Below, in pieces: positions 33,701 through 36,700 of a stretch of DNA of 64,000 nt. The stretch is from Escherichia coli (GTDB lineage: Bacteria; Pseudomonadota; Gammaproteobacteria; Enterobacterales; Enterobacteriaceae). The position numbers were made by a program. Position 1 is the first letter of the stretch; the number at the start of each line of letters is the position of its first letter. The stretch lies in NCBI RefSeq assembly GCF_030013205.1, contig NZ_CP122648.1; one strand, 5' to 3'.

Positions 33701-36700
33701 TTATACGTGAACAGGTCAATGCCGCCGAGAGTAAAGCCACATTTTGCGTACAAATTGCAGGCAGGTACATTGTTCGTTTGTGTCTCTAATCGTATGCCAA
33801 GGAGCTGTCTGCTTAGTGCCCACTTTTTCGCAAATTCGATGAGACTGTGCGCGACTCCTTTGCCTCGGTGCGTGTGCGACACAACAATGTGTTCGATAGA
33901 GGCTAGATCGTTCCATGTTGAGTTGAGTTCAATCTTCCCGACAAGCTCTTGGTCGATGAATGCGCCATAGCAAGCAGAGTCTTCATCAGAGTCATCATCC
34001 GAGATGTAATCCTTCCGGTAGGGGCTCACACTTCTGGTAGATAGTTCAAAGCCTTGGTCGGATAGGTGCACATCGAACACTTCACGAACAATGAAATGGT
34101 TCTCAGCATCCAATGTTTCCGCCACCTGCTCAGGGATCACCGAAATCTTCATATGACGCCTAACGCCTTGCTCACCGGAAAATTGCGAGCGCAGCGAGTA
34201 ATTTTCGCCGAATGATTCGGTATAGAGTGAAATCGCTTTATCAACAACTACCTTTTCTTTCATACTAAAATTGCCTTCGAGTTTTACGTACAACATTTTA
34301 TTAGTAAGCATGCTCGTTTTGTCACCCGCTGATGCTTACCGTTAATTAATATAATCACTTGTATTAAATAGACTTTCTTTAAAAATACAAGACACTCTGT
34401 TATTACAAATCGTGCATGCCGTCTATCCTGCTTGCACGATGCACATTATCTCACCCAAAGAACTCATAACATTTTAATTTATTTAGCATTAAATTAAAAC
34501 TCTACCGGTAAACAAGCATCTCTAGGCGTAAAAAACAGGCACTTTTTTAAATCCCAGCTAGAATAGGCTGTATAGGCAGACAGTTGCAAGACAAGGAGCG
34601 TTTTATGTCTAACAGTCCATTTTTAAATTCTATACGCACGGATATGCGACAAAAAGGTTATGCGCTGAAAACTGAAAAAACTTACCTGCACTGGATTAAG
34701 CGTTTTATTCTGTTTCACAAAAAACGTCATCCTCAGACCATGGGCAGTGAAGAGGTCAGGCTGTTTTTATCCAGCTTAGCAAACAGCAGACATGTAGCCA
34801 TAAACACGCAGAAAATCGCTTTAAATGCCCTAGCTTTTTTGTACAACAGGTTTTTACAACAGCCGTTGGGCGATATTGATTATATCCCTGCAAGCAAGCC
34901 TAGACGGCTACCCTCTGTTATCTCTGCAAATGAAGTGCAACGCATTTTGCAGGTTATGGATACTCGCAACCAAGTTATTTTTACGCTGCTGTATGGTGCA
35001 GGTTTGCGCATTAATGAATGCTTGCGTTTGCGGGTTAAAGATTTTGATTTTGATAATGGCTGCATCACTGTGCATGACGGTAAGGGTGGGAAAAGCAGAA
35101 ACAGCCTACTGCCCACGCGCCTAATCCCAGCAATAAAATAACTCATTGAGCAAGCGCGGCTTATTCAGCAAGACGACAACTTACAAGGCGTAGGGCCATC
35201 GCTGCCTTTTGCTTTAGATCACAAATACCCTTCTGCTTATCGACAAGCGGCGTGGATGTTTGTCTTTCCCTCCAGCACGCTCTGCAACCACCCGTATAAC
35301 GGCAAATTATGCCGCCATCATCTGCATGACTCCGTTGCGCGAAAGGCATTGAAGGCAGCCGTACAAAAAGCAGGCATCGTTAGCAAGCGTGTCACTTGTC
35401 ATACATTTCGTCACTCGTTTGCTACGCATCTATTACAAGCGGGGCGTGATATTCGCACTGTGCAAGAACTCTTAGGGCATAACGATGTTAAGACCACGCA
35501 AATCTATACGCATGTGTTGGGTCAGCATTTTGCCGGCACCACCAGTCCTGCGGATGGACTGATGCTACTTATCAATCAGTAAAAGTAGATAAATATCTTT
35601 ATGTAGCCCTGAGTAGCCCCTGATACTTTTTATGGTGAAAAAGATAAACAATCATAGAGGGGATAAATATGAGCCAGTTCTACCATTGTTCAGATAAGTT
35701 TAAGCAAGATACTGTCAATCACAGTGACCATTCATGGTCATTACACTTCCTCCAGTTGCCAGACAATGCCTAACATAAAAACGCAAAAGCCCAAAAGTCA
35801 GAGCTTAGGTGTTCTAGGCGTTTTCTAAGCGCTGAAGAAATACGTCTTACCGTAGATTGCGTGCGTTTCTGAAGCACATTTTCCTTATACATGGCTTTAT
35901 CCCAGGCAGCTTCATCAAGCTCTTGGAGTAACAAGCCAGTAATAATGCGACACTCTCGGGTTTGTAGCGAGCCGCTGGTGAGATCGGAGTTATAGCGGAA
36001 AGGGGTCATTTGTAATTATTTGTGGGTGGAGGATAGTTAACTTATTATTGTAGTTGGAAGAGGCTGCTTTCCAAACATTAGCACCTCGTAATGCTTGTTA
36101 CTGTATATTAATTTATGCTCTTAGCGCATGTTAATGGGCTATTACAATGCATAATGTCCACATCAAGATAACTGTGGCTTAACACCTGTACAAGCGAAAA
36201 AAATCAATCACCTGTCCGGAAATACGGGATCACTGTAAAGTGTTGGTGAGGCAGTCTAGGAGGGGGATTTAATTTGGGATACTGATGAAAGGATTATGAT
36301 CAGTTGGATATAGGATCGTACTAAGCTGAGCGGCAGGTTAGCTAGATTAGTTAACCAGATAAGTGAAATCTAGTTCCAAACTATTTTGTCATTTTTAACT
36401 TTCGCGCTAGCTTGCAACACCACACCCAGTTTCCATCTATTTTGTCACTTTTCCCAAAATAACTCTCAAAAACCCCCATTTTCACCCCTCCCAATTCCCA
36501 ACTATTTTGTCCGTCTACAGGGCTGCCGACCGGCGGCCCTTTTTTATAAGTGATATCAATAATTCCATTATTCATATACCCATTGATATAAATATATTCT
36601 GAATTATTGCTAATGTCTGATAATAAACTTGATTTCTTGCTGTTTTAATAATATTTAAATAATAAATTTATATTTAAGATTGAGTAATTAATATTATTTT

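What the first reader, a model, noticed from the sequence alone, without database searches (positions are those of the whole stretch)
36370..36519. The two Tn7 termini differ within the terminal 8 bp
Seen in sequence: the right terminus is TGTGGGCGGACAA and the left terminus (reverse complement) is TGTAGACGGACAAAATAGTTGGGAATTGGGAGGGGTGAAAATGGG. From memory, the commonly used Tn7L reads TGTGGGCGGACAAAATAGTTGGGAACTGGGAGGGGTGGAAATGGAG, which would make this left end divergent at several positions. I cannot verify that recollection here. Inference: either natural end variation or a variant/hybrid left arm.
Basis: partly seen in the sequence, partly recalled or inferred. Interest (0 to 1): 0.3.

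Follow-up and report, generated by a model that had tools for sequence, protein, structure and literature searches.

The report
Tn7 with a chimeric left end
This is the left end of an otherwise standard Tn7 transposon in an E. coli chromosome whose outermost ~120 bases come from a sibling transposon, a real but modest natural variant that still appears able to move.

Summary
A complete Tn7 (22899-36519) sits in attTn7 after glmS, flanked by a 5-bp duplication (GGGCT). Its right tip is TGTGGGCG and its left tip is TGTAGACG.

The tip mismatch is part of a larger patch. Against reference Tn7 (plasmid R721), all 20 differences in the last 2.2 kb lie in the outer 121 bp (36399-36516), about 16.5% divergence. 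The rest of the element differs at about 0.03%, and all five Tns proteins carry the R721 protein accessions.

The patch is a natural allele, not error or decay:
- 19 of the 20 variant positions recur in independent Tn7-family left ends.
- Only 2 of the 20 fall inside the 22-bp TnsB sites.
- The same chimeric end, minus one private base (36494), occurs in two other E. coli samples, next to a different native attTn7 flank allele. This implies independent insertions, so the end is probably functional.

Best reading: recombination between Tn7L and the left end of a Tn7 sibling, with the crossover at or inside the innermost TnsB site. In this family tip positions 1-3 never vary, while positions 4, 6 and 7 do.

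It is an undescribed allele of a very well known element, of low to moderate interest.

The parts
21044..22873 (+). glmS, which carries the TnsD recognition site of attTn7
   Evidence: ORF; RefSeq annotation of the identical record NZ_CP122643.1
22894..22898 (.). Target-site duplication GGGCT, copy on the glmS side; its centre lies 23 bp after the glmS stop codon
   Evidence: Sequence; same pentamer at 36520-36524; position agrees with PMC2918618
22899..22989 (+). Tn7 right end: canonical 8-bp tip TGTGGGCG plus four overlapping 22-bp TnsB sites
   Evidence: four site matches at 22907-22986; identical to R721 Tn7R
23033..30759 (+). [quoted passage not shown]
   Evidence: ORFs; same RefSeq protein accessions as in R721 Tn7
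32735..35582 (.). Class 2 integron: aadA1, sat2, estX remnant (34180-34291, deletion junction about 34205) and intI2 with its internal stop
   Evidence: Annotation; comparisons with R721 and with L014/L015
36369..36390 (-). Innermost TnsB site L3, with canonical Tn7 sequence; the recombination breakpoint lies at or inside this site, inward of 36399
36399..36516 (-). Divergent patch: 19 substitutions and one 1-bp insertion against reference Tn7L
36425..36446 (-). TnsB site L2, with one change (G to A at site position 15, a base that the right-end sites already carry)
36490..36511 (-). TnsB site L1 (terminal site), with one change at site position 18
36494..36494 (-). Base private to this copy (C to T read from the tip). 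It removes the conserved G:C pair that TnsB K116 contacts. The sister copies L014/L015 have the canonical base.
   Evidence: PMC9308760 section 8
36512..36519 (-). Left 8-bp tip TGTAGACG, differing from the right tip TGTGGGCG at positions 4 and 6
36520..36524 (.). Target-site duplication GGGCT, distal copy

Best explanation
The interval is the left end (Tn7L) of a complete, autonomous Tn7 inserted by the TnsABC+D pathway into attTn7 downstream of glmS in E. coli ETEC4079.

The outer ~120 bp comprise the 8-bp tip, TnsB site L1, a 43-bp spacer, site L2 and most of the second spacer. They carry the left-end allele of a sibling Tn7-family transposon, joined to canonical Tn7 at or just outside the innermost TnsB site L3. 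It is therefore a recombinant left end.

Most likely origin (inferred): homologous recombination between two left ends lying in the same orientation, when Tn7 was nested in or tandem with a sibling element. That event would delete the DNA between them and leave Tn7 with the sibling's outer tip.

The chimeric end keeps everything TnsB is known to need: the terminal TGT, the 8-bp distance to site 1, and three nearly intact 22-bp sites. It therefore still works with canonical TnsB and a canonical right end. The G-to-A changes at tip positions 4 and 6 are tolerated natural polymorphisms.

This particular copy has since gained one private substitution in site L1, at the base pair contacted by TnsB K116, and an 821-bp deletion of estX.
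For: Shown by tool results:
- Element anatomy, the 5-bp duplication and the position after glmS.
- 4 differences in the first 11,281 bp. All 20 differences in the last 2,222 bp lie in the terminal 121 bp.
- The five Tns proteins carry the same accessions as in R721.
- 19 of the 20 variant positions recur in at least one independent left end: Methylophaga plasmid, MAG and metagenome contigs, Logan and ENA contigs.
- Only 2 of 20 changes fall in the 44 bp of sites L1 and L2, against 18 in 84 bp of tip and spacers (Fisher p = 0.011).
- L014 (Logan SRR14005141) and L015 (E. coli GCA_002511105.1) carry the same chimeric end with the canonical base at position 26. They are 100% identical to the window over 7,003 bp.
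- Their flank is a different native E. coli allele, with 4 differences in the 45 bp next to the tip. Each allele is common in E. coli: 1,483 and 212 genomes.
- L019 carries the same outer allele joined to a pESI-type inner part at a non-attTn7 site, so breakpoints differ between mosaics.
- L013 shows a canonical Tn7L 4.5 kb inside a sibling's left end in the same orientation, the arrangement the proposed deletion needs.
- A sibling with tip TGTAGATG encodes a TnsE 87% identical to that of Tn7.

From the literature:
- In the Tn7-like VchCAST, tip positions 1-3 are critical and positions 4-8 are not (PMC10201428).
- TnsB makes few base-specific contacts, and the K116A mutant keeps about 50% of transposition (PMC9308760).
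Against: - No transposition assay was done. Competence rests on finding the same element beside two attTn7 flank alleles, with only 60 bp of flank available for the sister copies.
- The exact donor element was not found in any collection searched.
- The nested or tandem deletion route is inferred from an analogous arrangement (L013), not observed for this allele.
- The 1-bp longer L1-L2 spacer and the private change at the K116 contact could reduce activity of this particular copy.
- Which allele is ancestral is inferred only from frequency: canonical Tn7L in 116 of 117 E. coli complete genomes that carry a Tn7L.
Confidence: 0.82

Rival explanations
1. Gene conversion after insertion. A canonical Tn7 inserted at attTn7, and its left tip was later overwritten in the chromosome by recombination with a related element. 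In that case the chimeric end never had to transpose and may be non-functional.
For: The intact 5-bp duplication is equally compatible with this reading. The patch runs to within 3 bp of the terminus.
Against: The same chimeric end lies beside two different native attTn7 flank alleles that already differ 15 bp from the tip. That would need either two identical conversions or a crossover within 15 bp. No other sequence at least 90% identical to the variant end exists in ETEC4079 or in any other of the 5,426 E. coli complete genomes. The same outer allele also occurs at a non-attTn7 site (L019).
Confidence: 0.08
2. Local mutational decay or hypermutation of the left end of an immobilised Tn7.
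For: 18 of the 19 substitutions are transitions. One change hits a conserved TnsB contact.
Against: 19 of the 20 variant positions are shared with independent sequences from unrelated organisms. The changes avoid the TnsB sites. The transitions run in both directions. The same transition bias appears between other natural left-end alleles.
Confidence: 0.02
3. Sequencing, polishing or assembly artefact in the ETEC4079 genome.
For: Only 1 of 117 E. coli complete genomes that carry a Tn7L shows the variant.
Against: The identical allele, minus one base, is present in two independent assemblies (NCBI GCA_002511105.1 and Logan SRR14005141). Closely related alleles are present in several metagenomes. 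The single private base 36494 is the only position that could still be an error.
Confidence: 0.01
4. The whole element is a distinct Tn7-like transposon with its own cognate, naturally asymmetric ends, not a chimera.
For: Sibling elements with TGTAGACG-type left tips exist. In two environmental contigs such left tips lie next to right-end-like tips reading TGTGGGCG or TGTGAGCG.
Against: Outside the 121-bp patch and the cassette array, the element is 99.97% identical to R721 Tn7, with identical Tns proteins. True siblings diverge throughout: TnsE is 87% identical and the interior becomes unalignable just inside site L3.
Confidence: 0.03

Closest known systems
Prototype Tn7 (as on plasmid R721, NC_002525; also the source of mini-Tn7 Tn7L/Tn7R arms)
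   Same: Same tnsABCDE proteins (identical accessions), same right end, same class 2 integron backbone, same attTn7 position, orientation and 5-bp duplication, and the same 3 + 4 layout of TnsB sites.
   Different: The outer 121 bp of the left end differ at 20 positions. These include tip positions 4 and 6, one base in each of sites L1 and L2, and a 43-bp instead of 42-bp L1-L2 spacer. The cassette array derives from estX-sat2-aadA1, with estX mostly deleted, instead of dfrA1-sat2-aadA1.
estX-sat2-aadA1 Tn7 of pig and human E. coli (e.g. NZ_CP171874.1 YZ22PE67, NZ_CM168008.1 PEC408)
   Same: Probable parent lineage, with the same integron array as the sister copies L014/L015 and 99.3% identity over 3.2 kb.
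   Different: Those complete genomes carry the canonical left end. The roughly 20 differences are the left-tip patch.
Environmental Tn7 siblings with TGTAGACG, TGTGGACG or TGTAGATG left tips (Methylophaga pinxianii pWTT2411; contigs L005, L011, L013, L016-L020)
   Same: They share the variant tip, the extra G in spacer 1 and most spacer variants. Spacer 2 of L013/L016/L017 is identical to the window's.
   Different: Their interiors and cargo differ (arsR-like, TetR/SMR, helicase). Where seen, TnsE is 87% identical. None is identical to the window's patch over its full length.
Salmonella Infantis pESI-type Tn7L remnant with class 2 integron (CP038508.1)
   Same: Another natural Tn7L allele attached to a class 2 integron. 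It shares 4 of the window's variant positions, all in spacers.
   Different: It has the canonical TGTGGGCG tip, only 5 differences from Tn7L, and no tns genes in the 16 kb fetched inward of this left end.

Membership tests
Tn7 (prototype element) | tnsA-tnsB-tnsC-tnsD-tnsE operon next to the right end | tested here: met
   Five intact ORFs at 23033-30759, with the same RefSeq protein accessions as R721 Tn7
Tn7 (prototype element) | Ends made of an 8-bp terminal sequence plus 22-bp TnsB sites: four overlapping sites on the right, three spaced sites on the left | tested here: met
   Exactly 7 matches to the site pattern in 64 kb, 4 at 22907-22986 and 3 at 36372-36511, against 0.02 expected by chance. 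Layout as described in PMC9308760
Tn7 (prototype element) | Identical 8-bp terminal inverted repeats TGTGGGCG at both ends | tested here: not met
   The left tip is TGTAGACG, 2 of 8 positions different; the terminal TGT is retained
Tn7 (prototype element) | Reference Tn7L sequence over the functional ~150 bp | tested here: not met
   20 differences in 36399-36516 and 84.6% identity over 130 bp
Tn7 (prototype element) | Insertion into attTn7 about 20 bp after the glmS stop codon, right end next to glmS, with a 5-bp target duplication | tested here: met
   glmS stop at 22873; GGGCT at 22894-22898 and 36520-36524; right end proximal to glmS; agrees with PMC2918618
Tn7 (prototype element) | Class 2 integron (intI2 with internal stop, sat2, aadA1) at the left end | tested here: met
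   RefSeq annotation of the identical record; alignment to R721
Tn7 (prototype element) | Ability of the ends to be mobilised by TnsABC+D/E | not testable with these tools
   Indirect only: the same chimeric element lies beside two different native attTn7 flank alleles
Distinct Tn7-like sibling transposon | Divergence from Tn7 along the whole element, including the transposition proteins | tested here: not met
   99.97% DNA identity outside the patch and cassette array, and identical Tns proteins. A true sibling shows 87% TnsE identity

The most novel reading that the evidence does not exclude
The functional ends of Tn7 and its close siblings form a freely recombining pool of interchangeable modules, so an element can swap its outer tip and still be moved by its own TnsB. 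Across the whole ~150-bp TnsB-covered end, including the so-called spacers, substitutions are almost exclusively transitions: 18:1 here and 17:2 for Tn7 against L020, compared with 23:16 in the adjacent interior. That pattern would point to selection for the purine/pyrimidine pattern (DNA shape or bendability read by TnsB) rather than for base identity. It would also give a natural map of which tip and spacer positions can be changed in mini-Tn7 and CAST donor design.
Probability: 0.15. Interest if true: 0.45.

Novelty: new member of a known kind. Interest (0 to 1): 0.27.

Why it matters
Tn7 ends are standard parts: mini-Tn7 vectors and CAST donors copy them verbatim. The role of tip positions 4-8 in prototype Tn7 is still described as uncertain.

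A naturally circulating Tn7 with TGTAGACG on the left and TGTGGGCG on the right, a 43-bp L1-L2 spacer and 16 changes in the two spacers, but canonical proteins, is a free natural experiment. It suggests these positions tolerate change.

It also shows that resistance-carrying Tn7 in livestock E. coli exchanges end sequences with environmental siblings. That exchange matters for tracing lineages and for PCR or k-mer assays that target Tn7L.

Beyond that it does not change what is known about how Tn7 works.

Tried and rejected
- Exact-sequence look-ups with nothing on record: the 64-aa junction ORF and a TnsE query that began with V instead of M.
- A repeat TnsE look-up returned only the same 9-kb contig, so no complete sibling with both ends was obtained.
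- The Methylophaga plasmid was read for about 66 kb inward of its left end. No tns genes or right end were found, so its cognate right tip remains unknown.
- The genome contigs and metagenome-contig scans for TGTAGACG-type ends gave only 3 and 4 loci, none identical to the window's patch.
- A literature search for the string TGTAGACGGACAA gave no paper.
- Tang et al. 1995, on the Tn7 terminal 8-bp repeats, is not held in the library.
- PMC11014353 and PMC7500258 held nothing on left-end variants.
- Rejected after testing: sequencing error, in-situ decay, and a wholly distinct transposon (see rivals).

Full report
**What is there**

The window matches the chromosome of E. coli ETEC4079 (NZ_CP122643.1; pig faeces, Belgium).
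- glmS occupies 21044-22873.
- A Tn7 right end starts 26 bases after the glmS stop codon, at 22899, with TGTGGGCGGACAA.
- Intact tnsA-E follow at 23033-30759.
- Next comes a class 2 integron with sat2, aadA1 and the usual intI2 pseudogene.
- The element ends at 36519, where the reverse complement reads TGTAGACGGACAA.
- The pentamer GGGCT flanks both tips, at 22894-22898 and 36520-36524.

Position, orientation and the 5-bp duplication are those described for TnsD-directed insertion into attTn7 (PMC2918618). A degenerate pattern for the 22-bp TnsB site matches exactly seven times in the 64 kb, against 0.02 expected by chance. Four matches are at 22907-22986 and three at 36372-36511. This is the 4 + 3 layout described for Tn7 (PMC9308760).

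**Checking the observation**

The tips differ at positions 4 and 6 (G to A in both).

The mismatch is the edge of a larger feature. Against R721 Tn7:
- The first 11,281 bp have 4 differences.
- A short block then reflects a different cassette array.
- In the last 2,222 bp, all 20 differences (19 substitutions and one inserted G) lie between 36399 and 36516.

That is 16.5% divergence in the outer 121 bp against about 0.03% elsewhere. The chance of such clustering under a uniform model is about 5e-26. The five Tns proteins have the same RefSeq accessions as in R721.

**Real or artefact; decay or allele**

Among 5,426 complete E. coli genomes, 117 carry a Tn7L, and only ETEC4079 carries this version. 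The others are 84.6% identical over the last 130 bp. Even so, the variant bases are not random.
- A Methylophaga pinxianii plasmid, two MAGs and several metagenome contigs carry left ends with the same TGTAGACG tip, the same extra G and most of the same spacer variants.
- Translating the variant end gives an open reading frame that gene callers sometimes call. I used it as a search handle and recovered 11 more entries.
- Taken together, 19 of the 20 variant positions occur in at least one independent sequence.
- Only 2 of the 20 changes fall in the 44 bp of TnsB sites L1 and L2, against 18 in the 84 bp of tip and spacers (Fisher p = 0.011).

Sequencing error and local decay are therefore rejected.

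**Sister copies and mobility**

Entry P0001 led to two contigs: L015 (E. coli GCA_002511105.1) and L014 (Logan SRR14005141). Both carry the same chimeric left end on a Tn7 with an estX-sat2-aadA1 array.
- They are 100% identical to the window over 7,003 bp.
- The window lacks 821 bp of estX.
- Within the element's left arm they differ from the window at one base only, 36494.

The chromosomal flank is a different matter. It shows four differences within the 45 bp next to the tip, the nearest one 15 bp away. Both flank versions are common native E. coli alleles, found in 1,483 and 212 complete genomes.

The simplest reading is that the same chimeric element entered attTn7 at least twice. That means the TGTAGACG left end works with canonical TnsB and a canonical right end. 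This step is inferred, not shown.

Eleven or twelve complete E. coli genomes, many from pigs, carry estX-type Tn7 with the canonical left end. That is the likely parent.

**A pool of mosaic ends**

Aligning eleven left ends shows several things.
- Tip variants seen at left ends are TGTGGGCG, TGTAGACG, TGTGGACG and TGTAGATG. TGTAGGCG and TGTGAGCG occur on other Tn7-like ends in L011.
- Positions 1-3 never vary.
- Contig L019 has the window's outer allele through spacer 1, joined to a pESI-type inner part, at an unrelated insertion site. Breakpoints therefore differ between mosaics.
- The second spacer of L013, L016 and L017 is identical to the window's.
- One sibling (L018, tip TGTAGATG) encodes a TnsE 87% identical to Tn7's. 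The donors are therefore close relatives of Tn7.
- These siblings lose alignable similarity to Tn7 just inside site L3. This fits a crossover at or near that site.

**How the chimera probably arose (inferred)**

In L013 a canonical Tn7L lies 4.5 kb inside a sibling's left end, in the same orientation. Recombination between two such direct repeats would delete the intervening DNA. It would leave Tn7 with its own inner end and the sibling's outer tip, running right to the terminus as seen here. Only one crossover is needed. I did not find the exact donor.

**Expected function**

- In the Tn7-like VchCAST, library mutagenesis found tip positions 1-3 critical and positions 4-8 not. The 8-bp distance to the first site was tightly constrained (PMC10201428). 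All of these features are preserved here.
- TnsB contacts mostly the DNA backbone (PMC9308760).
- The window's private change at 36494 removes the conserved G at site position 18 that K116 contacts. The K116A mutant keeps about 50% of transposition, so I expect at most a modest defect for this copy.
- The change in L2 produces a base that the right-end sites already carry.

**Comparison and verdict**

This is Tn7 by every test except identity of the two tips and of the Tn7L sequence (see the membership table). It is not a separate Tn7-like transposon. I found no paper containing the variant tip string.

It is best described as a previously undescribed, naturally circulating Tn7 lineage with a recombinant left end. 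Interest is low to moderate: useful for people who engineer or track Tn7 ends, but mechanistically unsurprising.

**Open observations**

- Substitutions between left-end alleles are nearly all transitions inside the 150-bp end: 18:1 here and 17:2 for Tn7 against L020. In the next 180 bp of interior the ratio is 23:16. Numbers are small and the interior alignment is weaker.
- In two environmental contigs, a right-end-like tip abuts a TGTAGACG left tip with 4 bp or 2 bp between them, not the 5 bp expected for tandem insertions.

Noticed in passing
window 34180-34291 (junction about 34205); ORF 33628-34311 (-): Relative to the sister copies L014/L015, the window has an 821-bp deletion that removes most of the estX cassette. 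It leaves an in-frame ORF of 227 aa that joins the EstX N-terminus to Sat2. The dfrA1 cassette of reference Tn7 is absent.
   Followed up: partly
L005 857-886; L011 about 120-160 (- strand view): In two environmental contigs a Tn7R-like tip (TGTGGGCG or TGTGAGCG) abuts a TGTAGACG Tn7L-like tip with only 4 bp or 2 bp between them. Tandem insertions sharing a target duplication would leave 5 bp.
   Followed up: no
L011 (LFRM01374301.1), - strand about 1336 to 130: A cargo-only segment of about 1.2 kb appears to be bounded by a TGTAGGCG tip on one side and a Tn7R-like TGTGAGCG end on the other, with no tnsA next to the right end. It may be a miniature or decayed Tn7-like element.
   Followed up: no
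Tn7L positions 1-150 against the interior: window 36370-36519; L020 1572-2074: Substitutions between natural left-end alleles are almost all transitions within the TnsB-covered end (18:1, 16:1, 5:0, 17:2). In the adjacent interior of Tn7 against L020 the ratio is 23:16. This may reflect a constraint on the purine/pyrimidine pattern.
   Followed up: partly
L013 7024 and 11549: On a plasmid-like Logan contig a canonical Tn7L lies 4.5 kb inside a sibling's TGTGGACG left end, in the same orientation. Genes with arsenic-resistance-type (ArsB, HTH_20, FMN_red) and sul2-type (Pterin_bind) Pfam hits lie between them.
   Followed up: partly
L004 14216-15193 (S. Infantis pESI-like plasmid CP038508.1): intI2 is listed as a full 978-bp CDS with a protein accession, so it apparently lacks the internal stop typical of Tn7. 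It lies next to a dfrA14 cassette and a Tn7L allele with 5 spacer differences. No tns genes occur in the 16 kb fetched inward of this left end.
   Followed up: no
window 36807-41800: The long polar fimbriae operon lpfA-D (O113 type) lies directly downstream of the Tn7 left end, followed by pstSCAB-phoU. The sister copies sit next to a different attTn7-downstream allele.
   Followed up: partly
window 30815-30967: RefSeq annotates a fragment of an IS256-family transposase just after tnsE. This stretch lies in the first 11,281 bp of the element, which differ from R721 Tn7 at only 4 positions, none of them here.
   Followed up: no
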